Shown: positions 1,794 through 53,306, counted from the first letter of the stretch. The stretch is DNA of 64,000 nt from a bacterium (GCA_030427205.1 JAUHXC010000011.1:44016-108015), one strand, 5' to 3'. Made by a program: numbers and translations. Notes: generated by a model from the letters alone, not told the origin.

Positions 1794-3356
1794 TCAGCGG
1801 CGCGCGGTGGCGCTGGCCTGGGTCTCGCGGATGACCATCACCTTGATCTGCCCCGGATAGATGCACTCGTCTTCGATGCGATAGGCGATGTCGTTGGCCA
1901 GCCGGGCCGCGGCCAGATCGTCCACCCGGCGGGGGTCGACCACCACCCGCACCTCGCGCCCGCCCGAGATCACGTAAGTATTGCGAATGCCCCGCGGCTT
2001 GAAGTCGGCGCAGATGGTCTGCACGTCTTCGACCCGCTGCGAGTACGACTCCACCGTCTCGCGGCGCGCGCCGGGCCGGGCGCCGCTGAGCGCGTCGGCC
2101 GCCGCCACCAGATGGGCCAGCGGCGACGACGGCTTCTCGTCGTTGTGGTGCGCCGCGATGGGGTGCACGATCTCGGGGGCCTCGCCGTGCGCCGTCGCAA
2201 AAGCGGCGCCGCTCACCGCGTGGCTGCCCACCGCCTCGGTCTCGGCCCACAGCACCTTGCCGATGTCGTGCATCAGCGCCGCCCGATGCGCGGTGCGGAT
2301 GTCGAGCCCCATGTCGCTGGCCATCATGCCGCACAGGTGCGCGGTCTCGATGGCGTGCTGCCACTGATTCTGGGTGTAGCTGGTGCGGTAGAGCAGCTTG
2401 CCCACCAGGAACTGGATCTCGCCGTGCACGTTGCGCAGCTTGAGGATCCGGGTGGCCCGCTTGCCGGCGTCGCGGCAGATCTTCTCCAGGTCGACCCGGG
2501 CTTTCTCGACGTACTGCTCGACCAGATCGATCGACGGGTCCTTGCGTCGCGCCAGCCGCTCGTACGCCAGGCGGCCGATCTCCCGGGTGTAGGGGTCGGG
2601 CGCCTGCATGTAGAAGCCGTCCTTGCCCTCCTGGGGCACGAACTCCACCTCGCTGAACTCGGCGATGCCGGCGAGGATCGCCCGACCATCGGCCAGAAAC
2701 CGCTCGCGGGCGGCCTTGTTGCGCGGCAGATCGACCGTCGCGATGAGCCGGTCGGCGGGCTTGGCCACCCCGTAGCGGTACATCGCGAGGTCCATCAGCC
2801 GGCGCGCCTCGACCTCGGCCCGGCTCTGCACCCGCTCCTCGTAGGCCCGGGCGGCCTTCTCGGCGGCGACGCGGGCCTCGCCGGTGAGCGCGTCGCCGAT
2901 GCGCTCGCTCATCGCGTCCCGGCTCTCCCCGGCGACCTCTTCGATGCGCTCGACGATGCGCTGCTCGAGCCCGTCGATCTCGTCGCGCAGCGCGTTGAGG
3001 TGTTGCCGGCGCGTCTTCATCTCGGCGGCCCGCTCGCCCAGCGCCCGATCGCGGGCCTCGGCGCTGTCATTGCGTCGACCGGCCGCGGCCTCCATCTGCT
3101 GAAGGCGGGCCTCGTCTTCGGCGAGCTGCTCGGTCTCGCTCGCGAGCTGGCGCTGCAGCCGATCGCGCAGCCGCTCGGCCCGTTCGAGGGCCGCCTCGCG
3201 GGCCACCTCGGCTTCGCCGCCGATCGCTTCGAGCTCGATCCGACCCTGGCGTCGCGCGCTCGAGACCGCCGCGTCCCGGCGACGGCGCGCGCCGATGGCC
3301 ATGGCCCCGGCGACGGTTCCGGCGGCAGCGACGGCGGTGGCAGCGGCGATGATCAT
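1794..3356 (-). CDS. rny: ribonuclease Y (N-terminal TM, KH domain, HD domain)
   Basis: Start taken at 'MIIAAATAVAAAGTVAGAMAI', an N-terminal membrane anchor. A long coiled-coil region follows, then a KH-like segment and the HD-domain motif 'AALMHDIGK'. The C-terminal region 'IKVMVIRETQ' is typical of RNase Y. The ORF's first 20 codons upstream (to 3416) are probably not translated. Confidence 0.85.
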   Translation of the reverse strand: MIIAAATAVAAAGTVAGAMAIGARRRRDAAVSSARRQGRIELEAIGGEAEVAREAALERAERLRDRLQRQLASETEQLAEDEARLQQMEAAAGRRNDSAEARDRALGERAAEMKTRRQHLNALRDEIDGLEQRIVERIEEVAGESRDAMSERIGDALTGEARVAAEKAARAYEERVQSRAEVEARRLMDLAMYRYGVAKPADRLIATVDLPRNKAARERFLADGRAILAGIAEFSEVEFVPQEGKDGFYMQAPDPYTREIGRLAYERLARRKDPSIDLVEQYVEKARVDLEKICRDAGKRATRILKLRNVHGEIQFLVGKLLYRTSYTQNQWQHAIETAHLCGMMASDMGLDIRTAHRAALMHDIGKVLWAETEAVGSHAVSGAAFATAHGEAPEIVHPIAAHHNDEKPSSPLAHLVAAADALSGARPGARRETVESYSQRVEDVQTICADFKPRGIRNTYVISGGREVRVVVDPRRVDDLAAARLANDIAYRIEDECIYPGQIKVMVIRETQASATARR

Positions 3357-3481
3357 GGATGTCTCCCGGGGCGGGCGCGTATGGCGCGGTTTCGAATGAT
3401 GACCACCTGCTGCCATCGTTTCAAGCGGCGGGCCGATCCCCAGAGCGATCGGGGCCTCTCGCCGCTGACCGGGCAGCCCGC

Positions 3482-4207
3482 TCAGCGGCGACGGCGTCGG
3501 CGTTTGGCCTCGGGCAGCCGGCGCAGGGCCGCCAGATCCTCCAGGCCGGCGAGCGTCGCCCGCAGATAACCCGGCGACAGCGTCTCGACCAGCGCCAGGG
3601 TGCGGGCGGCGAGCGCCTCGGGGTTGTACGGGCCGACGTCGTCGGCGACCCGATCGCTGGCCCGCGCGACGACCAGCGCGCTGCGGGCGTGATCCGCCGC
3701 CTCGCGGAACAGCGCCCGGGCGAGCTGATCGCCCACGGTGCGCAGCTCGGGCAGGTCGGCTGCGGCTTCGGCGGTCGCGGTGGCGGCGTGCACCCGGGCC
3801 CGCAGCGCCGGCTGAAGGGTGAGGCCGCGGCTGCGGGCCTGTCGCGCCAACCGCACCACCCGGGCCCGGGCGGCGTCGGCGTCGTCGGTGCGCGCCCGCC
3901 GCAGCGCCCGCGGGGCCTCGCGGCGCACGAAGCCGTAGTCTCCGCTGGCGAACGCCCGGGCGAAGTCACCGTCGGGATCGGCGTCGGCCGCGTCGAGGGT
4001 GGCCAGGGTCGCCCGCGCCTCCGCCCGGGCCGAGGCGAACGCCGCTTCGAAGCCCGACAGCCGCTCGGCGGCCCGTCGACGCAGGTGGTCGCCGGCCACG
4101 CCGTCGAGCCCCTCGGCCCGCTCGAGCAGCGCCTCGATGAAGCGAAAACCGGGCCCGTCGAAGACCTCCGCTCCACCGGCGCGCAATGTCTCGAGCCTGC
4201 GCTTCAA
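3482..4207 (-). CDS. DUF2894-like Ala/Arg-rich hypothetical protein; third gene of the MotA/MotB-like module
   Basis: In frame with the over-long ORF 3482..4918. There is no ATG. A TTG at 4207-4205 sits 6 nt downstream of AGGAGG and overlaps the TGA stop of the upstream MotB-like gene (TTGA overlap). The 242-aa product 'MKRRLETLRAGGAEVFDGPGFRFIEALLERAEG...' is helical. It resembles DUF2894 proteins found with DUF802 and OmpA genes. Confidence 0.5.
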   Translation of the reverse strand: MKRRLETLRAGGAEVFDGPGFRFIEALLERAEGLDGVAGDHLRRRAAERLSGFEAAFASARAEARATLATLDAADADPDGDFARAFASGDYGFVRREAPRALRRARTDDADAARARVVRLARQARSRGLTLQPALRARVHAATATAEAAADLPELRTVGDQLARALFREAADHARSALVVARASDRVADDVGPYNPEALAARTLALVETLSPGYLRATLAGLEDLAALRRLPEAKRRRRRR

Positions 4208-4893
4208 GGGCTGCCTCCTTGCGTCGGCGGCGGCAGGGTCGGCGCCCGCATGCCGCTCTGGGGCACCGGCACGATCTCCACCCGCCGATTGCGGGCCCGG
4301 CCGGCCTCGTCGGTATTGGGGGCCGCCGGGTGATGCGATCCGAAGCCGGCGGCGAAGAGCCGCTGCGGGGGCACCTCGTGGCTCAACAGCCCGCGGACCA
4401 CCGTCAGCGCCCGCTCGGTGGAGAGCTGCCAGTTGTCGGCGAAGCGTGGCCGATCGCCGTGGATCACCAGATCGTCGGTGAACCCTCCCACCATCACCAT
4501 CTGCTGCTGCTCGGTCAACCACCGGGCCAGCGGCGGGCCGATCTCGGCGAGCAGCGCGGCGCCCTCGGGGCGCAGGTCGGCGGAGTACAGGTCGAAGAGC
4601 ACGCTGCCGGCGATGGCGATGCGGCCGTCTTCCAGAGTGATGCGCCCCGCGGCCAGGGGCGCCGCCAGGGCCGCCTCCAGCGCCGCGAGCCGCTCGTCGG
4701 CCGCCTCGCGGGCCGTCTGCGCCTCGACCCGGGCCTCCTGCTCGGCTTCGAGCGAGGCGGCCAGGTCGACCTGGAACCACACCGCGACGACGAAGAAGAG
4801 CACGAACAGGCCCATCAGCCCGGCCATCAGGTCGCCGAAGACCAGCCAGACATGGCCGGTCTCGCCGGACACCTCGCGCTCGTCGAGCATCAT
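4204..4893 (-). CDS. MotB/ZorB-like stator subunit with OmpA-like peptidoglycan-binding domain
   Basis: 229 aa. A single N-terminal TM carries a conserved Asp, 'HVWLVFGDLMAGLMGLFVLFFVV', compared with MotB 'ADFMTAMMAFFLVMW'. The C-terminal OmpA-like domain ends in 'NRRVEIV'. Its ATG overlaps the upstream gene's TGA (ATGA). Confidence 0.85.
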   Translation of the reverse strand: MMLDEREVSGETGHVWLVFGDLMAGLMGLFVLFFVVAVWFQVDLAASLEAEQEARVEAQTAREAADERLAALEAALAAPLAAGRITLEDGRIAIAGSVLFDLYSADLRPEGAALLAEIGPPLARWLTEQQQMVMVGGFTDDLVIHGDRPRFADNWQLSTERALTVVRGLLSHEVPPQRLFAAGFGSHHPAAPNTDEAGRARNRRVEIVPVPQSGMRAPTLPPPTQGGSP

Positions 4894-7800
4894 CCGGCGA
4901 CCCCCGCCGCGCCCTCACCGCGCAGGGCGCGCAGCTCGGTGAACAGCTCCCGCTGGAAGCGCAGCGCGTCGCCGAAGACCTCGCGGGTCTGGTCGAGGTA
5001 CTCGCCGACGAGGCGCCCCGCCTGCTCCTCGCCGGTATTGCCCAGGCTGCCCTCCAGCTCGGCGAGCGTGGTCATCCAGCGCTCGTTGGCCTCGCGGTAG
5101 CCGTCCACCGCCTCGGCGAGCATCTGGGCCACCGCCGACAGCTCGGCGCCGCCGGCGGTGAGCAGATCGCCGCCCGCGCGCACGCCCAGGCCGACCTCGG
5201 TCAGCCGGGCGGTCAGCGCCTCGACGTGGGTCGACAGCGTGTCGGCCAGGGCGGCGTGGCTCTGGGAGCGGGCCTCGGCCATGCGCCCCTCGAACACCGC
5301 CAGCCGCTCGGTCTGCCGGTCGAGCGCCTCTTCGACCTTGCCCGCCAAGGCCGCGAGCCGGGCGCCGGCGGCCTCCTCGCTGGCCTCGGCGGCGGCGAAG
5401 CGGGCCTCGGTGGCGGCGTCCATGCGCTCGACGGTCTGCGACATGCCGGCGAGCAGCGCGTCGAGGCGCGCGTCGCGGGCCGCGTCAACGGCGGTGCGGG
5501 CCGCGAGCTGCGCCCCGGCCTGCTCGACCAGCTTCGCCGCGGCGGCCGGCGCCTCGGCGGCGGTGCGGGCGACCGCTTCGAGCGGCGCGGTCAGGCGCTC
5601 GCCCATCGCGCCGAGGTGCTCTTCGAGGGCGTGGTCGAGGCGGCCGAGCACCGCGGCGGCTTCGGTGGCCCGGGCGGTCTGCGCGGCGGCGAAGGCCTCG
5701 GCCTGCTCGGCCAGCGCGGCGCCCAGGCGCACGGTGGTCGCCTCGAGCCGCTCGGCGGTCTGCACGTCCAGATCGGCCAGCGCCGCCTGCACCGCCTCGA
5801 AGCGGGCCCCGATGCTCGCCGACTGACGGGCGCCCTCGACCGCCGCCGCCTCCAGGTGCAGGCGGGCGGCGTCGACCGCCTCGCCGAACGCGTGCAGCCG
5901 GGCGGCGTCGGCCTCGGCGGTGCCCAGCAGGCGGGCCTCGACGCGGCCCACCAGATCGTCGAGCCGGGCCGACAGCGCCTCGGCGCGCGCCTGCTCGGCC
6001 TCGGTCAGCCCGGTCACCGCTGTCTGCACGTCAGCCACCAGCGCCGTCAGCGGCGCGCCGATGGCCTGCAGGCCGTCCCGGGTCGCGTCCACGGCCCGAT
6101 CGAGCCGAACCAGCACCCCCTCCAGCCGCGCGTGGGCCGCGGCCTCCAGGCGGCCCGCCAGGGCCTCCAGCGCCGATTCCCGCGCCGCGTCGACCTCGGC
6201 GGCGTGCGCCCGGCGCTGCCCGTCGAGCGCCTCGAACCGCGCCGCGAGCCCTTCGAAGGCCGACCGCTGGCGCTCGGCGAGCGCGTCGGCCTGCGACCGG
6301 CGGGTGCGCTCGCTCTCCGCGAGCTGCTCGGCCAGCGCCGCCAGCGCCGCCCGCTGGGCGTCGACGGCCGCCTGGGTGCGGGACCCGCGCTCGACGTCCA
6401 GCGCTTCGAGCCGCCCGATCAGCGCGTCGAGGGCGTCTCGCTGGGCGCCGTCGGCTTCGGCCGCCGCGGTCGCGATGCGCTCACCCAACGCGGCGAGCGC
6501 AGCGCGATCGTCGGCCGAGAGCTGCGCCTGACGCTCGGCGCGCGCCTGCTCGGCCGCCTCGAGTCGGCTGGCCAGCGCCCCGAGCGCGGCCTGCTGCGCG
6601 TCCACCGCCGCCTCGATGCGCGCCGCCTGCGCCGCGCCGCGGGTATCGGCGGCGGCGCGCCGCTTGTCTTCGGCCTCTATCATGCGCCCGGCGAGCCCCT
6701 CGATCGCCGCCCGCTGGGTCTCGGCGGCCTCGATCAGCGCGTCGGCGCGGCGGGTATCGGCAGCGTCGATGCGCGTCGCCAGCGCTTCGAGCGCCGCGCT
6801 CTGACGGGCGGCCGCGGCCTCGGCCTCGGCCTGACGGCGGGCGTCGGCCTCTTCGACGCGCCGCACGGTCTGCGACCACTCGGCGGCCCGGGACACGGCC
6901 CGCGCCTGCTCGGCGCCTTCGAGCTGTTCGAGCAGCGCCGCGTGGGCCGCCTCGACGTGGGCCCGCAGCGAGGTGTCGGCCTCGGCCTGCCGCCGCACCA
7001 GCCCGTCGAGCCGGTCGAGCAGGTCGGCGTGGCGTCCGTGCGCCGCGGCATCGCGCGCGGTGGCGTGCTCCGCCCGGCGGCTCTCGGCGGCCTCGACGGT
7101 GCTCAGCATCGCCTCGACGTGGGCCACCAGCATGCCGTCGGCTTCGGCCCGCTGGCGGGCGGCGTCGTTGAGCCGGTCGAGCAGGGCGGCGTGGCGCTCG
7201 GCGTCGGCCGCCGCGCGGTCGGCGTCGCGGGCGGCGAGGGCGTCGGTCAGCGCGACGTGGCGTGCGTCCAACGCGGCGATGCGCGACGCCTCGGACGCGG
7301 CCAGCGTATCGGCGAGCCCGCCGATGTGCGCTTCGAGCGCCTCGGCCCGCAGCGCCTCGGCGGCGGCGCGGGTCTCTTCGGATTCGGTCACCGCCGACAG
7401 CACCCGGTCGAAGCCGGCGCCCAGCGCGTCCCGTCGGCGGGCCTCCTCGGCGGTCAGGGCCGCGGTCAGCCGCTGCACCTCCTCGCGGGTCGCCTGCCGG
7501 CCGGCCTCTTCGGCGGCGCGGCGGGCGTCGGCGTCGGCCGACAACATCTCGGTCCACTCGGCGGCGTGGCGCCCCACCGCGGCCTCGGCCCGCTCGGCGG
7601 CCTGCCCGGCCAACGCCGCGACCGCGGTCGACGTCTGCTCGACGCTCGCCGCGAAGCCCGCCGACAGCGCCTCGCGGATGTCGGCCGCAGCCCGGCCGAA
7701 CGCCGCCGCCGCGGCCTCGGCGGCTTTCTCCTGCGCGCCGACGGCCCGCTCGCCGACCGCCGTCTGGGCGTCGACGAGGCTCGACTCGAGCTGCTCGATG

Positions 7801-8504
7801 CGCGCCACGGCCCGGCCGAGCGCCTCGGCGGCGGCAGGCAGCGCCTCGCCCTGGCGCACCAACGCTTCGAGGACCGCCAGCTGACGCCCGGCGGGGGTCG
7901 TGGCCTCCAGGTTCGCGCCGGCCCATGAGGCCAGCCGCCGTCGGGCGCGGCGCTCGGCCCGCCGGACCCAGACCGCCGCCAGCCCCAGGGCCGCCGAGGC
8001 GGCGACGCCGGCGACCGAGGTGCCGAACGCCCGGGTGAGCCCGTCGATGGGGCCGGCCAGCCCCTGGCGCAGCGCGGTGACGTCGGCGGCGCCCAGCATC
8101 GCGCCGCGGGCGCCGGACAGCGTCTCGACCAGCCCGAGGAAGGTGCCGAAGAGCCCCAGCATCACCAACAAGCCCACCAGATAGGGCGTGAAGCCGACCG
8201 GCGCCCCGGGCGGGGTCTGGCCGGCGCGCACGGCGGCCACGAGCGCGCGCACGGCGGGCGAGGCGTCGTCGAGGCGGGTCTCGAAGTCGTCGGCGTCGCG
8301 GGCGGGCAACGTCGGGATCTCGTCGAGCAGCCGGCCGGCGGCGCTGGCCCGACGCCACAGCTCGACCGCGCCGACCCACAGCCCGAGGGTGATGCCGCCG
8401 AGGACCACCAGCGCCAGCGCGTCCTCTCCCCGATAGAACGCCGCGGCTCGGGCGATGAGCGCGGTGCCGAGTACGGTGAGCAGGGCGACGGCCAGACGCG
8501 GCAT
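4890..8504 (-). CDS. MotA/TolQ/ExbB-like proton-channel protein with a ~950-aa cytoplasmic coiled-coil tail (ZorA-like / DUF802-like)
   Basis: Start at ATG 8504, where GGAGGA lies 4-5 nt upstream ('MPRLAVALLTVLG...'). Four predicted TMs. TM3 carries the MotA/TolQ signature 'LVMLGLFGTFLGLVETLSGA'. A roughly 950-aa Ala/Glu/Arg/Asp-rich, internally repetitive alpha-helical region follows. The ORF track extends to 8585, but there is no RBS there. Confidence 0.8.
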   Translation of the reverse strand: MPRLAVALLTVLGTALIARAAAFYRGEDALALVVLGGITLGLWVGAVELWRRASAAGRLLDEIPTLPARDADDFETRLDDASPAVRALVAAVRAGQTPPGAPVGFTPYLVGLLVMLGLFGTFLGLVETLSGARGAMLGAADVTALRQGLAGPIDGLTRAFGTSVAGVAASAALGLAAVWVRRAERRARRRLASWAGANLEATTPAGRQLAVLEALVRQGEALPAAAEALGRAVARIEQLESSLVDAQTAVGERAVGAQEKAAEAAAAAFGRAAADIREALSAGFAASVEQTSTAVAALAGQAAERAEAAVGRHAAEWTEMLSADADARRAAEEAGRQATREEVQRLTAALTAEEARRRDALGAGFDRVLSAVTESEETRAAAEALRAEALEAHIGGLADTLAASEASRIAALDARHVALTDALAARDADRAAADAERHAALLDRLNDAARQRAEADGMLVAHVEAMLSTVEAAESRRAEHATARDAAAHGRHADLLDRLDGLVRRQAEADTSLRAHVEAAHAALLEQLEGAEQARAVSRAAEWSQTVRRVEEADARRQAEAEAAAARQSAALEALATRIDAADTRRADALIEAAETQRAAIEGLAGRMIEAEDKRRAAADTRGAAQAARIEAAVDAQQAALGALASRLEAAEQARAERQAQLSADDRAALAALGERIATAAAEADGAQRDALDALIGRLEALDVERGSRTQAAVDAQRAALAALAEQLAESERTRRSQADALAERQRSAFEGLAARFEALDGQRRAHAAEVDAARESALEALAGRLEAAAHARLEGVLVRLDRAVDATRDGLQAIGAPLTALVADVQTAVTGLTEAEQARAEALSARLDDLVGRVEARLLGTAEADAARLHAFGEAVDAARLHLEAAAVEGARQSASIGARFEAVQAALADLDVQTAERLEATTVRLGAALAEQAEAFAAAQTARATEAAAVLGRLDHALEEHLGAMGERLTAPLEAVARTAAEAPAAAAKLVEQAGAQLAARTAVDAARDARLDALLAGMSQTVERMDAATEARFAAAEASEEAAGARLAALAGKVEEALDRQTERLAVFEGRMAEARSQSHAALADTLSTHVEALTARLTEVGLGVRAGGDLLTAGGAELSAVAQMLAEAVDGYREANERWMTTLAELEGSLGNTGEEQAGRLVGEYLDQTREVFGDALRFQRELFTELRALRGEGAAGVAG

Positions 8505-8630
8505 CCGATCCTCCGGGGGCTGGTGCAGATACGGCAGCCGGTCATCGCCGACCGATCGACCGCTGTCAAGGGTCACGGGGGGCAAAAAACGTCACTGGTC
8601 CGGGCAGATGTATCGGTCGACCATGCGCCG

Positions 8631-10500: not shown

Positions 10501-10773
10501 GTGAGTGACTCTAACGGCCGACGCAGGGGCCCGAATACCGATTTCGGGATTCGCCCGAAGCACTCCCTGACATCTTCGCAGATTCTGCTTTCGGGTGTCT
10601 GTCCGACGAAACGCCCACTGCGCCTGATGCGGACATCCTGACGGATCTCACCCACAGACGACCCCTGACAAAATGCATCTTGCCTCAAAAAAAGTCGGCT
10701 GCGACCCCGTCAGAGGCAGGGCAGAGACGGTTGGTCCCCCCCGGGTACCCGGAACCGGTGACAATATCGGCGA

Positions 10774-11784
10774 ATGCAGTATCTTCGGATGATGCGGCAT
10801 CTGGCCCTCATCATCGCGACGGCGGCGCTGGCGTCGGGCGGCTGCACGGCCGCGGACAGCGATCGGTCGCCGGACGTGCTCGGCGGTGACGCGCGGCCCG
10901 ACGTCCGGTCGTTGGACGCCACGCCCGATACGCCGCCGGTTGACGCGCGCCCCGATGGCGCGCGCCTGCCGGACGCCGCACCGCGGTCGGATGCCGCCCG
11001 CCCGGACGCCGCCCGCCCGGATGCCGCGGCCCCGCGGGGGCCCGATCACCCGCTGCCAGCGCTCGCCCCGCCGCCGGCCGGCGAGCCCGCGCCGGTGTGG
11101 CAGGTCTCGGTCGTCGAGCGCTTCCCTCACGACCCGCGGGCGTTCACCCAGGGCCTGCTGATGGTCGACGGTACGCTCTACGAGTCGACCGGGCTCAACG
11201 GGCAATCGTCGGTGCGGATCGTCGATCTGGCCACGGGCGCCGTGCAGCGGCGGCGCGATCTGGCGGACCGCTACTTTGGCGAGGGGCTGGTCGCCATCGA
11301 CGATCGGCTCATCCAGCTGACGTGGCGGTCGCAGGTGGCGTTCGTCTACGACCGGGCGACGCTCGAGCCGCGCGGGCAGCACGCCTACGTCGGCGAGGGC
11401 TGGGGCCTGACCGACGACGGCCGGCGGCTGATCCTGTCCGATGGCACCGATCGCCTGCGCTTCTTCGACCGCGAGACGTTCGCCGAGCTGGGCGCGGTCC
11501 GTGTGACCGACGCGGGGCGGGCAATCCGCCAGCTCAACGAGCTGGAGTATATCGACGGCGAGGTGCTGGCCAACGTGTGGCAGACCGATCGCATCGCGCG
11601 CATCGACCCGACGACGGGTCGGGTCATCGGCTGGCTCGATCTGGCGGGCTTGCGGCCACAGGAGGCCAATCGCCAGGGCGACGTGCTCAACGGCATCGCC
11701 TGGGACGCGCCGAATCAGCGGCTGATCGTGACCGGGAAACGCTGGCCGCTGATGTTCGCGATTCGGGCGTTGCACGCGCCCTGA
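10774..11784 (+). CDS. glutaminyl-peptide cyclotransferase (bacterial/plant-type beta-propeller QC), lipoprotein
   Basis: N-terminal 'MMRHLALIIATAALASGGC' is a lipoprotein signal. A Pro/Asp/Ala-rich linker with 15-bp DNA repeats follows. The core contains 'FTQGLLMVDGTLYESTGLNGQSSVR...LTWRSQVAFVYD...GEGWGLTDDG', which is typical of the glutamine cyclotransferase family. Confidence 0.7.
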   Translation: MQYLRMMRHLALIIATAALASGGCTAADSDRSPDVLGGDARPDVRSLDATPDTPPVDARPDGARLPDAAPRSDAARPDAARPDAAAPRGPDHPLPALAPPPAGEPAPVWQVSVVERFPHDPRAFTQGLLMVDGTLYESTGLNGQSSVRIVDLATGAVQRRRDLADRYFGEGLVAIDDRLIQLTWRSQVAFVYDRATLEPRGQHAYVGEGWGLTDDGRRLILSDGTDRLRFFDRETFAELGAVRVTDAGRAIRQLNELEYIDGEVLANVWQTDRIARIDPTTGRVIGWLDLAGLRPQEANRQGDVLNGIAWDAPNQRLIVTGKRWPLMFAIRALHAP

Positions 11785-11810: not shown

Positions 11811-14800
11811 TCAGCCGCGCAGGCCGGCGTCCACCTGCCGCAAGAGCGCCAGCAGCTCGTCGACCTTGGCCCCGATGGCCTGAGCGTCGTTGAGGTTGTC
11901 GGCGCTGGCCCGCACCAGCGGCACCAGCGTGCGCTCGATGAGCTGGACCTGCTGGGCCAGCAGCTCTTCGACCCCCGGCGGCGGCTGGTTGAGCACCTCG
12001 ACCTCGACCTTGGGCTGCTGCATGGTCTGCAGCGCCTTGCTCAGCTCGGTCAGCGCCGTCGACAGCCCCGGATCGGCCGCGCTGGGGATCGGCGGCGGCT
12101 GGCCCGGCTTGCGGCCCAGCGGCGGCAGGTTGCCCAGCGGGCTCGCCGCGAGCTTCTTCGCCGACGCGGCCTGCTCGGCGGCGGCCTCGATGGCCCCCTT
12201 GATGCCGTCGAGTCGCCCGCCGAGCGCGTCGAGCTTCGTGGTGGTCTCCGTGCTCTGCCCCAGCGCGCTGCGCAGCCCGCCCAGGCTCTGGGCGATCGAG
12301 GCCAGCGCCTTCTCGGTGCCCGGCTGCGCGCCGCTCCTGAGCGCCTCGCCGATGGCGTCCAGCCGCCCGCCGAGCCCGGCGATGGCCTGCTCGGTCTGCC
12401 CCGCGCCGGTCAACGCGGCGCGGATGGCCCCCAGCTCTTCGCCCAGCCCGCCCAGCGTGCCGGTGACCCGGGCCACCGGGTCGTCCTCGTCGCCGCCCAT
12501 CGTCTGGATGCGCTTGAAGCTGCGGCAGACCTCGGCGTAGCGCGCCTTCTGCTCGGGGGTCATGCGCCCGCGCAGCTGCGCCAGCTTGAGCAGGTTGTTC
12601 TCCGCGCCGCTCGTCAGCGTCTGCGACTCGCCGGTGTAGTGGTCGTCGATGAGCGACTCCACCTCGTCGGGCGTCATCGCCGCCATGACCTTCTCGGCCA
12701 TCTTGTTCATGTTGCGGTAGCTGCCCTGCAGCTTGAACGACGGCTCGGTGCGAAAAGCGTCGTCGGTCGCGGCGCTGAGGATGTACTGCATGTTGACCCG
12801 CAGCACGACCTCCTGGATCTGGGTCAAACGCTGCAATACGGCGGTGATCTCGCCGATCTCGACCCCCGAGTACCCGTGCTTGAGGTCGGTGGTCGGGATC
12901 TCCTCGCCCCGGCTCATGCGGATGAGCTTGTAGACGTCGTCCTGGCTGCGGGTGGCCAGCGGCGCGAGCACCGGGTTCGAGGTGAGCGCGTTCTCGATGT
13001 ACGACAGCGAGAAGACGTCTTCCTTGCCGTCGAGGATGTCGCCCAGGTTGTAGGTGTCGGCGCGGTTGGCCAGCATGTCGGGGATGACGAACTTGGCCCC
13101 CGTCTCGGTGTACGGGTTGCCGGCCATGATCACGCAGAACTTCTTGCCCCGCATGTCGTAGGTGCGCGTGCGCCCGCGCCAGACGCCCTCGATCTTGCGC
13201 TGCCCGTCACACAGCGAGATGAACTTCTGCAAGAACTCGGGATCGAGGTGCTGCACGTCGTCGAGATAGAGCATGACGTTATTGCCCATCTCGAAGCCCA
13301 GGTTGACCTTCTCGACCTCCTGGCGCGCGGTCGCGTTGGGCGCCTCGCCCGGATCGAGGCTGACGACGCCGTGGCCCAGCGAGGGCCCGTTGACCTTGAC
13401 GAAGACCAGCCCCAGCCGATTGGCGACGTACTCCATCAGGGTCGTCTTGCCGTAACCGGGCGGCGAGATGAGCAGCAACAGGCCCATCAGATCGGTGCGT
13501 TTGTCGTTGCCCGCCGCGCCCATCTGCTTGGCGAGGTTGTCGCCGATGAGGTGCAGGTAGACGTCGTTGATGAGCTTGTTGCGCACGAAGCTGCTCATCA
13601 CCCGCGGCTGGAACTCGTTGAGCCGCAGCCGCCGCTTGCCGTCCTCGATGACCGCGGCCCGCTGCTTGCGATAGGCCCGATAGCCGGGCACCGTCACCTC
13701 GATGAAGCGGGTCAGGCGGTCGAGGAAGGTATCCAGCGCCAGCTGCATGACCTGATCGCTGATGCGCGGGTGCTGCCCCAACAGCCCGCGGACCTCGGTG
13801 CGGGTCACCGCGCTGCTCGTCTCGCGGTCGAGCTTGGGCCCGCCGATGATCACCGCCGCTTCGAGCACCAGCGGGTCTTCGGGGTCGAGGGCGGTGCCCT
13901 CCACCAGCGCCTCGATCCAGGCCCGCGCCACCGCGATGCGCCCGGCCAGGTCGCCGTCGAGCGCGCGCAGGTCGGCCTCGAAGTCGCGCCGGGTATTGGT
14001 CTCGTCGAGGTGCTGCCACAGCCGCTCGGTCAGCTCGACCGCCTCGCGGCTGGTGGTGAAGCGCGGCGGCTCGGCGCCCAGCTCTTCGACCAGATAGCGC
14101 CCCGCGAGCGTCCCGTGCCCCGCCAGCGTCGGCAGGCCGGCCAGCTCGGCGAAGGCGCGGATCTCGCCGGCCAGCTCTTCGGCCAGCGCGCCCATGGCCG
14201 CCGGCGTGCGCCCGAAGCTCTGCCGCAGCCGACCCAGGTTCATGCCTTTACGCTGCCAGCGGCCCTTGGCCTCGCGGTCGCCGTATGACCCCCAGAAGAG
14301 CGCCGCCACCGCCCGCGGGGCCGGCCCGAAGCGCAAGAGCCCGGCCGCGGTGTGCATGTGCAAGAGCTTCTCGAGGATGAGCGCCGCGTCGCTGTCGTGC
14401 AGCCCGCGCTCGTAGCCCTCCTCGTAGCGCTCGCGGGCGATCTCCGAGACCAGCTCGAGCAGCCCGCCGTCCTCCCGCTGAGCGTCGAGCAGGCGTTGAA
14501 TGGACAGCCCGCCGTCGCCGCGCTCGGCGGCGAAGAGCAGCGTCGCAGCCAGATACTCGGCGCGGTAGACCTGCTTGTTCTCCGAGACGACGGTCTGCGA
14601 CCAGTAGGGCTTGCTGGCGAGGAAGCCCTCGTCTTCGACCGGCTCGTAGAAGTCGGTGCCGGTCAGGTGCAGCGCCATGCCCTCGCCGCGGGGCACCATC
14701 GTCAGCTCGAGGGTCTGGGTATTGACGTTGAACAGGTGCCGCCCGAAGCGGATGAGGTCGGCGCCCTCCTCGAAGAGCTCGAGCTTGTCGCGCAGCCCGC

Positions 14801-17339
14801 GCAGGGCGTCCTGGCGGGCCTGCTTGAGCCGCCCGGCCAGCTCGTCGCCGCGCACCCCGTCGCCCAGCTTGGTCAGCTGCTCGGAGAACGCGCGCAGCTT
14901 CTGCACCATGCCGTCGGCGGCGAAGTAGGCGTTGAGCGCGTCTTCGTCCTTGAAGTTGCGGGTGCGCCGGGCGACGCCCTCGAGGATGCGGTCGGCGGCG
15001 CCCATGATGTTCTGCACCCGCCGGTTGCGCTCGTCGAGCAGCGTCTGCTTGCGGGTATTGAACGCCTCGTAGACCTCGTCCCGCTTGGCGGCCAGGTCGC
15101 CGAGGAACTCGTCGAACTCGCTGAAGCGGGCCTCGAGCTCTTCGAGCAGCACCATCAGCCGCGAGAGCTCTTCGTCGCAGCGCTCGGGGCTGTCGCACAT
15201 CGCCAGCGCGCTCTGCACGCTCTGGCCGAAGAGCTTGAACTGCGCCCCGAACTCGGCGCGGCCCTCTCTGCCGAGCAACGACTTGCGCCGCCCTTCGACG
15301 GTGGCCCGCACCCGGTTGAGGTGGCCGAAGACCTCGCCGATGCCCTCCAGGATGGTCGTGCGCTGGGTGGCGTCGTCAATCTGAAGGCCCGCGATGACCT
15401 CGGTCAGCAGATCGAGGCCCTCGCTCAGCTCGACCAGACGGGCGCGCAGCGGCTCGATCTCGGTGACCTTCTCGACCTTGCCCGAGTCGGCGAGCACCTT
15501 CTCCAGGTCGCGCTTGAGCGGCCCGAGCGCCTCGTCGCGCAGCAGGAACTGCACGCAGTCGCGGGTCAGTGAGTCGAACTGCTCGACCGCCTCGGCTTCG
15601 AGGGCGTCGAGCCGGGCCTGGTCGATGAAGCGCACCTCGCGGATCGTGATCAGGTGCCCCCGCTGCTGCCGCAGCGCCGTCATCGCCTTCATGTAGCCGT
15701 CGACCGAGTTGAGCGTATGGCTGCGCACCTCGGTGAGGATCTGCTGCTGGTTGGCCTCGGTCTCGGCCAGCGCGTCGGCCGCCTGCTTGCGCAGGATGAG
15801 CACCTTCTCGAACTCGTCGACGATGAGCTCGGCGGTGCGGGCGAGCGTATCGAGGGCCGCCTTGAAGGCGACCTCGGCGTGGTCGAGCCAGTAGTAGCTG
15901 TCCCGCATGCGGGTGATGGCGGCGATCAGGTCTTCGTAGGTCCGCCGATCGGGCTCGGCGCGGCCGATGAGCCGGTCGATCGAGAAGGCGTCGCTGATGC
16001 CGCGCACCAGCTCGGCGTTGCCCACCTTCGAGAGGAAGGAGCCGTCGGTCGGCGCCGCCGCGGCGAACTCGGCCGAGACGAAGGGCGTGCGCCAGACCTG
16101 CATCGGGTGCACCCGGCTCGGCTCGATGGCGGCCTTGAAGACCACCATGCGCCCGTCTTCGAACAGGCTGTAGCCGTTGCAGGTGATCGGGCTCTGCACC
16201 GCCTTGCGGATGAGGTTGTACGGCAAGAGCACGTACTCCCCCTCCTCGCGGCGGTGGAAGATGTAGAGCACGTCCTCGCCGTTGGGCGACTTGATGACCC
16301 GCTTGAAGCGCAGCCCGTCGAGCGGGGTGTCGAAGACCTTGTAGTCGCCGCTCTCGAGGTAGTAGCCGCCGGGGAAGATGATCCCGTGGTCTTCGGGCAG
16401 CTGCACGCAGGCCCGGCCGATGGCGTCGATGCGCACCACGCTGCGGGTGCGGGTATTGAACACCAGGTAGCGATAGTCGGGCTCGCGATAGGGCTTGATC
16501 CGCAGCAGGATCAGCGGCCCCAGCTCGGCGTAGTGGATCTCGCCGTCGTCGAGGGTCTGGTTGGCGTCCTCGACGGGCTCGCGATAGATGCCCTGCCCGT
16601 CTTCGGTATTGTCTTCGATCTTGACGGTGAGGTCGCCGCCGACGGTCTCGACGAAGACCTTGTCGAGGATGTTGACGTGCGGATGGCGCCCGGCCACCTG
16701 CTGCTCACGGCCGGTCGGGGTCCACTCGAAGTCGTGGCTGGCGGGGAAGGTATGGTCCCGATCGCCGCGGTTGTCGATGTAGGTCAGCCCGCCGCCCGGG
16801 TCGACCCGCCAGCGGCAGACCTTGATGTCGTCGGCGCTCGCGCCGATGCGAAAGACCGACATCAAGCGGGTGTCGGTGCTGCGCAGCAGCATCAGCTCGC
16901 AGTCGCGGTAGTAGCGGAAGAGGTCGCCGAAGTCCTTTCGGAAGTCGGTGTTCTGCAAGAAGCCCACGTCGCCGTCGGGCACCCGGCTGAAGTCGTAGCC
17001 GTCCGCCGCCTCTTCGAAGCGATACAGCCCGAAGACGTCCTCGACCTTGGTCTCCTGCTTGAGCCCCAGCGTCAGCTGATAGCCCACCAGCAGCTGGCCG
17101 CCGACGTTGACCACGTCGCGGGTGACGCAGTTGTGCTCGGTGCGCACCCGGCCGTTGGCCAGCACCGCCAGCTCGGTGCCGCCGAAGGTCTCTTTGCGGC
17201 GCTCGTTGAGGGCCTCGGCCTTCTCGCGCAGGGTCTTGCCCTGCGCCTCGAGCCGGCGGCGGATGACGGCGTAGTTGCCCCCGGCGAGCGCGGCGTCTTC
17301 GCCGGATTCGAGGGCGACGTCCTGTGTCTCTTCGGCCAT
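11811..17339 (-). CDS. giant (1842 aa) AAA+ ATPase-domain protein of unknown function, encoded downstream of nfeD-flotillin
   Basis: ATG 17339 has GGGGGAGAG 7 nt upstream. The N-terminal ~450 aa are beta-rich, followed by long coiled-coil segments. The AAA+ core is near residues 1350-1500: Walker A 'LLLISPPGYGKTTLMEY', Walker B 'VMLYLDDVQHL', sensor-1-like 'FCVIMAGNPYTE' (AAA_5/dynein-like). The C-terminus is coiled-coil/Gly-Leu repeat-rich. It lies 92 nt downstream of the flotillin gene. Confidence 0.85.
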   Translation of the reverse strand: MAEETQDVALESGEDAALAGGNYAVIRRRLEAQGKTLREKAEALNERRKETFGGTELAVLANGRVRTEHNCVTRDVVNVGGQLLVGYQLTLGLKQETKVEDVFGLYRFEEAADGYDFSRVPDGDVGFLQNTDFRKDFGDLFRYYRDCELMLLRSTDTRLMSVFRIGASADDIKVCRWRVDPGGGLTYIDNRGDRDHTFPASHDFEWTPTGREQQVAGRHPHVNILDKVFVETVGGDLTVKIEDNTEDGQGIYREPVEDANQTLDDGEIHYAELGPLILLRIKPYREPDYRYLVFNTRTRSVVRIDAIGRACVQLPEDHGIIFPGGYYLESGDYKVFDTPLDGLRFKRVIKSPNGEDVLYIFHRREEGEYVLLPYNLIRKAVQSPITCNGYSLFEDGRMVVFKAAIEPSRVHPMQVWRTPFVSAEFAAAAPTDGSFLSKVGNAELVRGISDAFSIDRLIGRAEPDRRTYEDLIAAITRMRDSYYWLDHAEVAFKAALDTLARTAELIVDEFEKVLILRKQAADALAETEANQQQILTEVRSHTLNSVDGYMKAMTALRQQRGHLITIREVRFIDQARLDALEAEAVEQFDSLTRDCVQFLLRDEALGPLKRDLEKVLADSGKVEKVTEIEPLRARLVELSEGLDLLTEVIAGLQIDDATQRTTILEGIGEVFGHLNRVRATVEGRRKSLLGREGRAEFGAQFKLFGQSVQSALAMCDSPERCDEELSRLMVLLEELEARFSEFDEFLGDLAAKRDEVYEAFNTRKQTLLDERNRRVQNIMGAADRILEGVARRTRNFKDEDALNAYFAADGMVQKLRAFSEQLTKLGDGVRGDELAGRLKQARQDALRGLRDKLELFEEGADLIRFGRHLFNVNTQTLELTMVPRGEGMALHLTGTDFYEPVEDEGFLASKPYWSQTVVSENKQVYRAEYLAATLLFAAERGDGGLSIQRLLDAQREDGGLLELVSEIARERYEEGYERGLHDSDAALILEKLLHMHTAAGLLRFGPAPRAVAALFWGSYGDREAKGRWQRKGMNLGRLRQSFGRTPAAMGALAEELAGEIRAFAELAGLPTLAGHGTLAGRYLVEELGAEPPRFTTSREAVELTERLWQHLDETNTRRDFEADLRALDGDLAGRIAVARAWIEALVEGTALDPEDPLVLEAAVIIGGPKLDRETSSAVTRTEVRGLLGQHPRISDQVMQLALDTFLDRLTRFIEVTVPGYRAYRKQRAAVIEDGKRRLRLNEFQPRVMSSFVRNKLINDVYLHLIGDNLAKQMGAAGNDKRTDLMGLLLLISPPGYGKTTLMEYVANRLGLVFVKVNGPSLGHGVVSLDPGEAPNATARQEVEKVNLGFEMGNNVMLYLDDVQHLDPEFLQKFISLCDGQRKIEGVWRGRTRTYDMRGKKFCVIMAGNPYTETGAKFVIPDMLANRADTYNLGDILDGKEDVFSLSYIENALTSNPVLAPLATRSQDDVYKLIRMSRGEEIPTTDLKHGYSGVEIGEITAVLQRLTQIQEVVLRVNMQYILSAATDDAFRTEPSFKLQGSYRNMNKMAEKVMAAMTPDEVESLIDDHYTGESQTLTSGAENNLLKLAQLRGRMTPEQKARYAEVCRSFKRIQTMGGDEDDPVARVTGTLGGLGEELGAIRAALTGAGQTEQAIAGLGGRLDAIGEALRSGAQPGTEKALASIAQSLGGLRSALGQSTETTTKLDALGGRLDGIKGAIEAAAEQAASAKKLAASPLGNLPPLGRKPGQPPPIPSAADPGLSTALTELSKALQTMQQPKVEVEVLNQPPPGVEELLAQQVQLIERTLVPLVRASADNLNDAQAIGAKVDELLALLRQVDAGLRG

Positions 17340-19618: not shown

Positions 19619-19680
19619 CGCGATTTCCCCCTCGGCCGGCGCGCGAGCCGGCCGTCTGCAGTCGGATCTCTACAAACGAA

Positions 19681-20577: not shown

Positions 20578-20703
20578 GGGCTCCGCGGGTATCGTTCGGG
20601 TCGTCGGCGGATCGAGACTGAACCTGTCGGTCACGCACGTCAAGGGGCCGTCTACCCCGCTCGATGTGGTCCCCGCCGAGACGGTGCGCTAGGGTGCGTT
20701 GCG

Positions 20704-40913: not shown

Positions 40914-41080
40914 GCCCGCCGCGCCGTCCACCCGCGGCCCCTCCGTTCGACCCCCCTTCCAACTTCGTCCGCGCCCGACGACGTCTCGTCGACCAGCGCC
41001 CGCTCGTCGGCGACCCGCACCAAAAATCCTGCAGGCCCCCCGGGTGACCCACTACAGTGCGGTCTCTCGCGGAGGTCGTC

Positions 41081-44670: not shown

Positions 44671-44674
<4 letters not shown>
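41081..44674 (+). CDS. CotH-family kinase-like protein flanked by two lamin-tail (LTD) domains; lipoprotein
   Basis: GGAGG is 5 nt upstream of ATG 41081. Lipobox 'LLLLCGC'. N-terminal low-complexity region with tandem repeats. LTD 1: 'IISEFMASN...PDWIELHNPGNTPYDLDGHHLTDD...PPQGYLIVFASGD'. CotH core: 'VYHWFVEDLAAAGTEAG...YNFDFNRDHRF...DLLTNYADKSKMRNTLSYGMF...YKCYDTLASVNG...KNYYAYRDHSTDMWWYLPWDID'. LTD 2: 'FVALRNSEAFAVDISGWRLSG...GGQLYVVAD'. Confidence 0.85.
41200..41400 (+). repeat. tandem 18-bp (GAEDxG) and 15-bp (PLDMA) repeats in the 5' end of the CotH gene
   Basis: 'gacgtcggcgcagaggac' units repeat from about 41200 to 41310. 'gacatggcgccgctc' occurs four times from about 41336 to 41395. 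The translations are 'DVGAADAGPADVGAEDIGAEDVGAEDAGTEDVGPED' and 'MTPLDMAPLDMAPLDMSPPD'. Confidence 0.7.
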
Positions 44675-53300: not shown

Positions 53301-53306
53301 AGATCG

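What the first reader, a model, noticed from the sequence alone, without database searches (positions are those of the whole stretch)
4950..7850. Internally periodic ~950-aa alpha-helical tail; its codon periodicity generates giant fake antisense ORFs
The tail is built from recurring ~45-50-aa units such as 'LLDRLNDAARQRAEADGMLVAHVEA...' and 'LLDRLDGLVRRQAEADTSLRAHVEAAHAAL...'. The strongly biased GCC/GAG/CGC codons in these units leave the opposite strand and other frames stop-free for up to 900 codons, including ORFs 5226..7928(+) and 6481..8379(-). A continuous helix this long would span on the order of 100 nm or more. That reach matters if, as proposed for ZorA, tail length sets how far into the cytoplasm the signal travels.
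Basis: partly seen in the sequence, partly recalled or inferred. Interest (0 to 1): 0.5.

Follow-up and report, generated by a model that had tools for sequence, protein, structure and literature searches.

The report
Very long Zorya ZorA tail
This gene encodes the membrane-motor subunit (ZorA, type III) of a known anti-phage system, with one of the longest all-helical cytoplasmic tails in its family; the tail grew by duplicating whole-helical-turn modules, and the giant overlapping ORFs are an ordinary high-GC artefact.

Summary
The real gene is the minus-strand CDS 4890..8504 (1,204 aa, ATG at 8504). It is a type III ZorA (PADLOC ZorA3, E=4e-71). zorB (OmpA/MotB-like) and a DUF2894 gene follow it. 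The fourth canonical type III gene (DUF3348) is absent from the whole 64-kb window and from its two closest relatives.

The tail (residues ~204-1197) is about 98% helix in an AlphaFold monomer model. Its hydrophobic stripe has a period of 3.61-3.66 residues, with no heptad signal, and its phase drifts smoothly over ~950 residues.

Internal repeats are real but cover only the mid-tail. They are one 54-aa duplication and seven or eight 29-aa units, not 45-50-aa units throughout.

The shadow ORFs exist. Shuffling codon order reproduces them, and across orthologues their length tracks GC3 (rho=0.90). They therefore come from codon usage, not periodicity.

Among 191 complete homologues only one protein is longer (1,217 aa). 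Tail length correlates with internal-repeat content (rho=0.60). Duplication unit lengths are locked to whole helical turns (3.64 residues per turn, R=0.84-0.86).

Verdict: a known family and an extreme but not unique member. The modest new point is that tail length evolves in whole-turn steps.

The parts
4890..8504 (-). zorA (type III ZorA, DUF802-family) CDS of 1,204 aa. The ATG is at 8504 and the stop codon at 4890-4892.
   Evidence: PADLOC ZorA3 models: E=4e-71, 5.8e-71, 1.2e-36 and 2.3e-31. GC by codon position is 0.85/0.56/0.95, which fits the minus strand. GGAGGA lies 7 nt upstream of the ATG. 920 library homologues have E<=1e-3 to the N-terminal third. Pfam and NCBIfam give no hit.
7905..8504 (-). 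N-terminal MotA/ExbB/TolQ-like membrane (stator) domain, residues 1-~200.
   Evidence: AF2 pLDDT is mostly 85-97. Foldseek top PDB hits are ExbB 6ye4, ZorA 8vvn and 8qyd, TolQ and MotA, with probabilities up to 1.00 and E values of 2e-3 to 1e-2. Invariant motifs GxxGTFxG and FGTSxAG are present. phmmer against the PDB finds 8vvn_C at E=0.0034.
4914..7895 (-). All-helical cytoplasmic tail, residues 204-1197 (~994 aa).
   Evidence: DSSP on the AF2 model gives helices 204-481, 489-683, 688-812, 819-970, 973-984, 986-1156 and 1159-1197. The hydrophobic period is 3.61-3.66 in every 200-residue window, with no power at 3.5. The phase of the stripe drifts smoothly with no abrupt jump.
6873..7196 (-). 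54-aa tandem duplication (residues 437-490 and 491-544).
   Evidence: Diagonal score 85 at offset 54, against a shuffle maximum of 66. 23 of 60 positions are identical. The DNA copies are 72% identical over 118 nt with a spacing of 162 nt (family D6).
6117..6824 (-). Array of 29-aa units (8 helical turns each), residues 561-796. There are seven clear copies plus one degenerate 22-residue copy, and one 11-residue spacer.
   Evidence: An HMM built from 5 units finds the two non-seed units at E=1.5e-7 and 1.8e-8. Seven units score E<=6e-7. DNA copies at multiples of 87 nt are 60-76% identical (families D1 and D2).
4893..5387 (-). Conserved tail tip (last ~165 aa), including the GG-x-E-L-S-A-V-A and QTREVFGDALRFQRELF motifs.
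   Evidence: Homologues align only at the N-terminal ~300-400 aa and the C-terminal ~155-420 aa. Nearly invariant columns are E1121, F1129, V1133, E1175 and Q1184. The tip is nearly identical to that of L010 although the mid-tails are unrelated.
5226..7928 (+). Shadow ORF (900 aa), antisense and in codon register with zorA. It is not a gene.
   Evidence: It ends at the reverse complement of the only TCA codon in zorA. A codon-order shuffle reproduces its length. Shadow-run length tracks GC3 across 38 zorA genes, rho=0.90.
6481..8379 (-). Shadow ORF (632 aa) on the same strand, in the +2 frame. It is not a gene.
   Evidence: The observed +2-frame stop-free run is 686 codons. The codon-order shuffle mean is 503 (5-95%: 285-867). 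Only 2.7% of third positions are T.
4204..4893 (-). zorB (MotB/OmpA-like, 229 aa). Its start overlaps the zorA stop.
   Evidence: PADLOC ZorB3 E=1.9e-75. Pfam OmpA E=1.1e-14. NCBIfam PRK09040 scores 250.5 bits, above its cut-off of 194. The TM helix carries Asp21 in FGDLMAGLM.
3482..4207 (-). DUF2894 gene (ZorF in PADLOC-DB naming, ~240 aa). The exact start is uncertain.
   Evidence: Pfam DUF2894 E=1e-15. PADLOC ZorF3 E=8.8e-17. It is 42-70% identical to the same gene in L001, L010 and the Sorangium loci.
8505..8630 (.). Divergent intergenic region between zorA and a plus-strand secreted BNR-repeat gene (ATG at 8631). There is no DUF3348 gene here.
   Evidence: The sequence is. The DUF3348 searches were negative.

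Best explanation
The region encodes the ZorA subunit of a type III-like Zorya module (zorA-zorB-DUF2894).

Shown here:
- A MotA/ExbB-type membrane domain is followed by about 994 residues of almost uninterrupted alpha-helix.
- That helix carries a single hydrophobic stripe with a period of ~3.63 residues. This is the natural pitch of an alpha-helix, not a heptad.
- The base and the tip of the tail are conserved across the family.
- The middle is a lineage-specific spacer built by tandem duplication of modules that each span a whole number of helical turns. In this gene they are 54 aa (15 turns, two copies) and 29 aa (8 turns, seven or eight copies).

Inferred by analogy with the solved E. coli and Shewanella ZorA5B2 complexes:
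- Five ZorA chains surround two ZorB chains to form a proton-driven, peptidoglycan-anchored stator.
- The five tails bundle into a nearly straight tube that projects roughly 135-150 nm into the cytoplasm.
- The tube carries a mechanical signal (rotation or conformational change) from the envelope to partners that dock at the conserved tip.
- Whole-turn duplications lengthen the tube without breaking the register of the hydrophobic seam between base and tip.

The giant overlapping ORFs are by-products of 95% GC3 codon usage. Antisense stops require TTA, CTA or TCA codons, and this gene uses only one of them.
For: Identity:
- PADLOC ZorA3 4e-71, ZorB3 1.9e-75 and ZorF3 8.8e-17, in one same-strand operon.
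- OmpA and DUF2894 Pfam hits.
- ExbB, ZorA, TolQ and MotA are the top structural matches.
- ZorB has the TM aspartate.

Helix:
- AF2 DSSP gives ~98% helix for residues 204-1197.

Stripe:
- The peak period is 3.62 with power 26, against a shuffle 99th percentile of 8.1.
- The period is 3.61-3.66 in all ten windows, and power at 3.5 is 0.8.
- The phase changes smoothly with no jump.

Modular growth:
- Homologues share only the base and the tip.
- In 191 complete homologues, tail length correlates with residues in significant self-repeats (rho=0.60, p=2e-20). 21 of 22 tails of 650 aa or more carry repeats, against 12 of 63 tails under 450 aa.
- 25 distinct duplication offsets are phase-locked at 3.635 residues per turn (R=0.86; the null maximum was 0.66 in 5,000 trials).
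- This holds after removing multiples and raising the score cut-off (R=0.84, p<=0.002).
- The closest full-length relative, L010 (1,190 aa), has two different 29-aa arrays at other tail positions.

Precedent:
- The E. coli ZorA tail (residues 223-729) is a pentameric right-handed bundle about 70 nm long, and every tested tail truncation abolishes defence (PMC11946911).

Shadow ORFs:
-.
Against: - No multimer model or experiment exists for any type III ZorA.
- The AF2 monomer model has low confidence in the tail (pLDDT 40-78, pTM 0.37). It has short breaks at 482-488, 684-687, 813-818, 971-972, 985 and 1157-1158, with prolines at 818, 974 and 986. The chain could therefore fold back on itself and be much shorter than 140 nm.
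- The DUF3348 partner that defines canonical type III Zorya is missing from the window and from the two closest relatives.
- The neighbours look like housekeeping genes, not a defence island. Anti-phage function here is an extrapolation.
- The whole-turn quantisation could partly reflect recombination between pre-existing in-phase repeats rather than selection on register.
Confidence: 0.7

Rival explanations
1. The tail is helical but not extended. It folds back at the predicted breaks into an antiparallel multi-helix bundle, like a chemoreceptor hairpin or a spectrin-type bundle. Its reach would then be a fraction of 140 nm, and length in residues would not translate into distance.
For: The AF2 monomer model breaks the helix at 482-488, 684-687, 813-818, 971-985 and 1157-1158, with pLDDT below 50 around most of these. 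Prolines lie at 818, 974 and 986, and a Gly-rich stretch at 1105-1120. Hu et al. note HHpred similarity between the E. coli ZorA tail tip and chemoreceptor signalling bundles.
Against: Monomer AF2 is expected to fold a homo-oligomeric helix back on itself. The hydrophobic phase is continuous across all the breaks. Mid-tail insertions of 11 to 247 residues occur on one side only, in tandem, with base and tip conserved. A hairpin would need matched changes in both arms. The E. coli ZorA tail was measured as fully extended, at 70 nm for 507 residues.
Confidence: 0.2
2. The locus is not an anti-phage system. It would be a Zorya-like stator (ZorAB plus DUF2894) co-opted for another envelope-to-cytoplasm function in this myxobacterial lineage, and the long tail would serve that other role.
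For: No DUF3348 gene is found in 64 kb, nor next to zorA in the two closest relatives. There a DksA/TraR zinc-finger gene and a divergent AidB gene lie upstream. Flanking genes are RNase Y-like, a BNR protein, glutamine cyclotransferase and DUF2400, with no known defence genes. The only experimental test of type III used all four genes (PMC8565338).
Against: All three genes score strongly against the type III-specific PADLOC models rather than types I or II. The tip and base motifs are conserved with the canonical four-gene loci. A DUF3348 gene could lie elsewhere in the genome.
Confidence: 0.2
3. One of the long overlapping ORFs, 5226..7928(+) or 6481..8379(-), is a genuine or additional coding sequence.
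For: Their sheer length: 900 and 632 codons.
Against: The codon-position GC pattern fits only the zorA frame. A codon-order shuffle gives equally long runs. In orthologues with lower GC3 the sense ORF is retained while the shadow run shrinks to 18-30% of the gene (rho=0.90). Other genes in the window have equally long shadows. All homology evidence is for the minus-strand zorA frame.
Confidence: 0.02

Closest known systems
Type III Zorya ZorA (PADLOC ZorA3; Pfam DUF802-containing proteins of Burkholderiales, Xanthomonadales and Myxococcota)
   Same: The N-terminal stator domain, all-helical tail, conserved tip motif and the downstream zorB and DUF2894 genes are all shared. The hydrophobic period is the same (3.58-3.68) in every homologue tested.
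   Different: At 1,204 aa it is far above the median of 730 aa for the 146 newly retrieved best-scoring library representatives, and only one of 191 complete homologues is longer. Pfam DUF802 does not hit it. No DUF3348 gene lies upstream, whereas nearly all of 51 other loci checked have a 240-430-aa ORF there. Its mid-tail repeat arrays are its own.
E. coli type I ZorA5B2 (PDB 8QYD) and Shewanella ZorAB (8VVN)
   Same: The fold of the membrane domain is shared. Both have a long C-terminal helical tail with non-heptad periodicity. ZorB has a TM Asp and a peptidoglycan-binding domain.
   Different: Sequence similarity is confined to about 60 residues (E=0.0034). The tail is about 994 aa, against 507 aa. 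The partners are DUF2894 (with or without DUF3348) instead of ZorC/ZorD or ZorE. A period of ~3.63 implies a nearly straight bundle rather than the modelled right-handed supercoil with a 328-A pitch. This last point is my calculation and the pitch quoted.
ExbB, TolQ and MotA 5:2 stator subunits
   Same: They are the top structural matches for residues 1-~230 and share the GxxGTF-type channel motif.
   Different: None of them has a cytoplasmic tail of hundreds of residues.
Length classes of other long helical bundles (chemoreceptor cytoplasmic domains that differ by whole heptads; 11/22-mer apolipoprotein repeats). Recalled from general knowledge, not tested here.
   Same: Length changes come in units that preserve the helical register. 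Pfam apolipoprotein PF01442 is pre-computed on several ZorA3 homologues.
   Different: The quantum here is the natural alpha-helical turn: 3.63 residues, with units of 11, 18, 29, 36, 54, 87 and more. It is not the 3.5-residue heptad. Insertions are tandem and one-sided, not symmetric in two hairpin arms.

Membership tests
Zorya type III system | ZorA: a MotA/ExbB-like membrane domain plus a long C-terminal helical tail that matches the type III ZorA profiles | tested here: met
   PADLOC ZorA3 E=4e-71, far better than ZorA1 (4.7e-12) or ZorA2 (1.9e-3). Fold matches are and the helical tail.
Zorya type III system | ZorB: a TM helix with a conserved Asp plus an OmpA-like peptidoglycan-binding domain, encoded immediately downstream of zorA | tested here: met
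   PADLOC ZorB3 1.9e-75. Pfam OmpA 1.1e-14. NCBIfam PRK09040 scores 250.5 bits against a cut-off of 194. Asp21 lies in the TM helix. The gene starts at the zorA stop codon.
Zorya type III system | A DUF2894 protein encoded downstream of zorB | tested here: met
   Pfam DUF2894 E=1e-15 (59.2 bits, cut-off 25). PADLOC ZorF3 E=8.8e-17.
Zorya type III system | A DUF3348 protein encoded immediately upstream of zorA (canonical order zorGABF, PMC11946911) | tested here: not met
   Upstream is a divergent plus-strand BNR gene. tblastn with the Limnohabitans and Sorangium proteins finds nothing in the window. HMMs built from 50 upstream ORFs find nothing better than E=0.14 in any of 500 six-frame ORFs. 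The betaproteobacterial HMM does detect the gene in 11 myxobacterial loci, so the test has power. The gene could still lie outside the window.
Zorya type III system | Protection against phage infection | not testable with these tools
   Only the four-gene Stenotrophomonas nitritireducens system has been tested (PMC8565338).
ZorA5B2 5:2 rotary stator with a pentameric tail | 5:2 stoichiometry, with a parallel five-helix tail bundle extending into the cytoplasm | not testable with these tools
   Only monomer AF2 is available. Indirect support comes from the single continuous hydrophobic stripe and the whole-turn quantised insertions.
Canonical (heptad) coiled coil | 3.5-residue hydrophobic periodicity | tested here: not met
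   Power at 3.50 is 0.8 for the whole tail and 2.5 or less in every window. Power at 3.62 is 26. The same holds in 18 homologues.
Pfam DUF802 | A match to PF05650 above its gathering score | tested here: not met
   No Pfam family reaches E<=0.01 for this protein. Homologues L045 and P0304 do match DUF802.

The most novel reading that the evidence does not exclude
ZorA tail length is an evolvable, selected parameter that changes only in whole-turn quanta. Independent lineages have lengthened the mid-tail with different modules (11, 18, 29, 87, 149 or 236-247 aa) while keeping the base and tip in register. This would imply that the tail works as one continuous, register-sensitive shaft. This window and its sister L010 reached almost the same extreme length (1,204 and 1,190 aa) by different 29-aa expansions. 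They belong to a myxobacterial sub-clade that has also lost the DUF3348 partner. That sub-clade would then be a three-gene Zorya variant with a reach of about 140 nm.
Probability: 0.4. Interest if true: 0.55.

Novelty: new variant of a known kind. Interest (0 to 1): 0.38.

Why it matters
The window itself adds little. Its zorA is a very long, poorly annotated member of a known defence-system family, invisible to Pfam and NCBIfam. It is also a clear example of high-GC shadow ORFs that gene callers should ignore.

The wider pattern is more useful. ZorA3 tails lengthen by tandem duplications whose sizes are locked to about 3.63 residues per turn, while base and tip stay conserved. This is sequence-only evidence that the whole tail is one register-sensitive helix bundle. 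It also suggests a simple experiment on how Zorya transmits its signal: compare in-phase and out-of-phase deletions or insertions. The natural range of tail lengths (about 350 to 1,000 residues) and the variants that lack DUF3348 provide ready material for testing whether length sets reach.

Tried and rejected
1. I asked whether an RNase gene downstream is part of the system. The window has an RNase Y-like gene and Limnohabitans L045 has an RNB gene. tblastn of the window's neighbours against 80 related loci found none of them conserved, and RNB occurs only in close relatives of L045. Rejected.

2. I searched for the DUF3348 gene anywhere in the window or fused into zorA, by tblastn and three HMMs. 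All were negative.

3. I searched homologues with the window's 29-aa unit HMM. No hit was better than E=0.005, and only one weak hit appeared in sister L010. The arrays are lineage-specific in sequence even where the unit length is shared.

4. Tandem Repeats Finder on the DNA found only short 5-18-nt arrays. The protein repeats are too diverged (60-76% DNA identity) to show as tandem DNA repeats.

5. An exact-match look-up of ZorB in public assemblies found nothing on record. The source organism is not identified. The closest relatives are Myxococcales and Polyangiaceae MAGs.

6. My first tail-only alignment (A3) was misaligned onto the membrane domain, so I discarded it and used A4.

7. AF2 monomer geometry cannot decide between an extended and a folded tail. 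I used only the secondary structure and the membrane-domain fold.

8. My first frame for the BNR control gene was off by one base (8632 instead of 8631), so that single control line should be ignored.

9. I did not run a second structure job on the tail tip. It would not bear on the finding.


Full report
**What is in the sequence**

The region has 76-80% GC. ORF listing shows a 1,231-codon minus-strand ORF at 4890..8585. It is overlapped by a 900-aa plus-strand ORF (5226..7928), a 632-aa minus-strand ORF in another frame (6481..8379), and several ORFs of 200-300 aa. GC by codon position is 0.85/0.56/0.95 for the long minus-strand frame. That is the classical high-GC coding signature, and it fits no other frame. 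The TTG at 8585 is not the start. An ATG at 8504 is preceded by GGAGGA, and the family profiles begin aligning there. The protein therefore has 1,204 aa, and I use this numbering below.

**Identity**

- Pfam and NCBIfam do not recognise the protein.
- The PADLOC type III ZorA models match it strongly (E=4e-71). Type I and II models match only the ~70-residue channel motif.
- The next gene (4204..4893, overlapping the zorA stop) is ZorB3. Evidence: PADLOC 1.9e-75, Pfam OmpA 1.1e-14, and NCBIfam PRK09040 above its cut-off. Its TM helix carries the Asp (FGDLMAGLM).
- The gene after that (3482..~4207) is a DUF2894 protein (Pfam 1e-15, PADLOC ZorF3 8.8e-17).
- An AF2 model built on a 48-sequence alignment gives pLDDT of mostly 85-97 for the membrane domain. 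Foldseek places that domain with ExbB, the solved ZorA structures (8VVN, 8QYD), TolQ and MotA.
- Naming caveat: Payne et al. 2021 and Mariano et al. 2025 call DUF3348 'ZorF' and DUF2894 'ZorG'. PADLOC-DB and Hu et al. 2024 (gene order zorGABF) use the opposite names. I use the domain names.

**A missing partner**

Canonical type III loci have a DUF3348 gene directly upstream of zorA. I confirmed this arrangement in Limnohabitans locus L045 (DUF3348 4.5e-55, DUF802, OmpA, DUF2894). Nearly all of 51 related loci checked have a 240-430-aa same-strand ORF at that position.

In the window, the upstream neighbour is a divergent secreted BNR-repeat gene. Its ATG is at 8631, leaving a 126-nt intergenic region. 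tblastn and three HMM searches find no DUF3348 homologue anywhere in the 64 kb. An HMM built only from betaproteobacterial sequences does detect the gene in 11 myxobacterial loci, so the test has power. It detects nothing in L001 or L010, the two closest relatives of the window (ZorB 66-67% identical). In those loci a DksA/TraR zinc-finger gene and a divergent AidB gene lie upstream.

This sub-clade therefore carries a three-gene zorA-zorB-DUF2894 module, at least locally. The rest of the window does not look like a defence island.

**The tail**

- Residues 204-1197 are about 98% helix in the AF2 model. The short breaks are at 482-488, 684-687, 813-818, 971-972, 985 and 1157-1158. Confidence in the tail is low (pLDDT 40-78, pTM 0.37), as expected when a homo-oligomeric helix is modelled as a monomer.
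- A Fourier analysis of large hydrophobic residues gives one sharp peak at 3.62 residues, with power 26 against a shuffle 99th percentile of 8.1. Every 200-residue window peaks between 3.61 and 3.66. Power at the heptad period of 3.50 is 0.8.
- The phase of this stripe, followed in 58-residue windows, drifts smoothly from base to tip. It is essentially constant over residues ~400-800, and no adjacent windows show an abrupt jump.
- Together these describe a single continuous amphipathic seam at the natural pitch of an alpha-helix. That implies a nearly straight bundle rather than a left-handed coiled coil.
- Hu et al. report the E. coli ZorA tail as a pentameric right-handed bundle, about 70 nm for residues 223-729.
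- Scaling by that figure (1.38 A per residue), or by the ideal helix rise (1.5 A per residue), the tail here would be about 137-149 nm if extended. This length is an inference, not a result.

**Repeats**

Its score is 85, against 50.3 +/- 4.3 and a maximum of 66 in 100 shuffles. 23 of 60 positions are identical.
- The main repeat is a 29-aa unit with consensus roughly xxAAxDAQRxALxALAxRLEAxxxxRxxx. There are seven clear copies and one degenerate copy in residues 561-796.
- An HMM built from five copies recovers the others at E=1.5e-7 and 1.8e-8.
- The irregular spacers are 11 and 22 residues long. 54, 29, 22 and 11 residues correspond to 15, 8, 6 and 3 turns at 3.63 residues per turn.
- About 273 of 998 tail residues lie in significant repeats. 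The DNA copies are only 60-76% identical, so the duplications are old.

**Shadow ORFs**

The 900-aa plus-strand ORF is antisense and in exact codon register with zorA. Its stops can therefore arise only from TTA, CTA or TCA codons in zorA. The gene has 0, 0 and 1 of these, and the single TCA (codon 220 in TTG numbering) lies at 7928, where the ORF ends.

Shuffling the order of zorA's codons removes every periodicity and repeat. It still gives a mean in-register antisense stop-free run of 924 codons (observed 1,011). In the +2 sense frame the mean is 503 codons (observed 686).

Across 38 zorA genes (the window and 37 orthologues), the longest shadow run as a fraction of gene length tracks GC3 (rho=0.90, p=1e-14). 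L002 has stronger repeats than the window but a GC3 of 0.74, and its shadow run is only 31% of the gene. The sense ORF is intact in every orthologue. Non-repetitive genes in the window behave the same way. The 1,842-aa DUF3686/AAA gene has an 824-codon stop-free antisense run and a listed 1,063-aa antisense ORF.

**Comparison across orthologues**

- A full HMMER scan of 1.84 billion representative proteins with the N-terminal 333 aa found 920 relatives. The 146 newly retrieved proteins among the best 150 have a median length of 730 aa and a maximum of 1,016 aa.
- A word-indexed search with the full protein added a 1,217-aa protein from Pigmentiphaga litoralis, so the window's ZorA is not the longest known.
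- Genome loci give 1,085-1,107 aa in Sorangium, 1,094 aa in a Polyangiaceae MAG and 1,190 aa in L010.
- Homologues align with the window only over the first ~300-400 residues and the last ~155-420. The middle is lineage-specific.
- In 191 complete, non-redundant homologues, tail length correlates with the number of residues in significant internal repeats (Spearman 0.60, p=2e-20). 21 of 22 tails of 650 aa or more contain repeats, against 12 of 63 tails under 450 aa.
- The modules differ by lineage: 18/36/54 aa (L002), 236 and 247 aa in three copies (Sorangium), 87 aa in six or more copies (Pigmentiphaga), 149 aa in three copies, and 11/22/44 aa, among others.
- L010 has two perfect-register 29-aa arrays, at residues 417-590 and 910-1054. 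They are unrelated in sequence to the window's array, yet its tip is almost identical to the window's.
- The 25 distinct primary duplication offsets are phase-locked to a period of 3.635 residues (mean resultant length 0.86, against 0.09 at 3.5). None of 5,000 jittered controls exceeded 0.66.
- After removing integer multiples and raising the score threshold, R stays at 0.84 with p<=0.002.
- A full-text search found no paper that links ZorA with hendecads, heptads or tandem duplication.

**Interpretation**

The best-supported reading is a ZorA5B2-type stator. Its five tails form one long, nearly straight, register-sensitive helical tube with a conserved docking tip. Its length has been increased by whole-turn tandem duplications.

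- The identity, helicity, periodicity and repeat architecture are shown here.
- The pentameric, extended geometry, the ~140-nm reach and the anti-phage role are inferred from type I/II structures and from the one experimental test of a four-gene type III system.
- The main rival is a folded-back tail. The AF2 breaks and three prolines keep it alive. One-sided tandem insertions and the continuous phase argue against it.
- A non-defence role cannot be excluded, given the missing DUF3348 gene and the housekeeping surroundings.

**Verdict**

The object is an extreme, poorly annotated member, or a local variant lacking the DUF3348 gene, of a known family. The shadow ORFs are ordinary. The one point of wider interest is the whole-turn quantisation of tail-length evolution, which makes the 'tail as shaft' idea directly testable.

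Noticed in passing
window 30822..33764 (-), with neighbour 26594..30862 (-): A 981-aa bacterial protein carries Major Vault Protein shoulder (PF11978, 3.4e-18) and Vault_3 repeat (1.1e-6) domains. It is preceded by a 1,423-aa gene with no Pfam hit. Vault-protein-like genes are unusual in bacteria.
   Followed up: no
window 11811..17339 (-), 17435..19669 (-), 19684..20688 (-): An 1,842-aa protein has DUF3686 ('ATPase involved in DNA repair', 1.2e-203), DUF7902 and an AAA domain. It lies in an apparent same-strand cluster with two further genes (~745 and ~335 aa) that have no Pfam or PADLOC hit. None of them is conserved next to zorA in 80 related loci.
   Followed up: partly
window 1794..3416 (-): An RNase Y-like gene (RNase_Y_N plus HD domains) sits directly downstream of the DUF2894 gene. 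It scores 339.5 bits against TIGR03319, below the 454-bit cut-off. It is not a conserved neighbour of zorA elsewhere.
   Followed up: yes
L010 2392..5964 (+) (MAG JAUHXL010000218.1): This is the closest full-length relative of the window's ZorA (1,190 aa). It has two perfect-register 29-aa arrays: six units around GAADAARAEAQAAATKGLAERVEGLAERL and five units of ERLSAAEAGSQERLAGLADAVEGALARQV. They differ from the window's array. The two relatives thus reach nearly equal total length by independent expansions.
   Followed up: partly
L001 9955..13281 (+) (Myxococcales MAG JACKDN010000009.1): The zorA orthologue is split between two reading frames (580-aa and 1,108-aa ORFs). This is either a frameshift or an assembly error in the MAG.
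   Followed up: no
window 10648..11775 (-) versus 10762..11781 (+): The 375-aa minus-strand ORF is another shadow ORF. The real gene is the plus-strand glutamine cyclotransferase (PF05096, 3.5e-94).
   Followed up: yes
literature and PADLOC-DB: The names ZorF and ZorG are used in opposite senses. In the text of Payne 2021 and Mariano 2025, DUF3348 is ZorF and DUF2894 is ZorG. In PADLOC-DB models and in the zorGABF order of Hu 2024, DUF2894 is ZorF.
   Followed up: yes
window 41048..44671 (+) and 53301..56849 (+): A 1,208-aa protein has CotH kinase and lamin-tail domains. A 1,183-aa protein has AAA_16 and TPR domains (STAND-like). Together with the GC content and the closest hits, this context suggests a chromosome of the Polyangia class of Myxococcota.
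   Followed up: no
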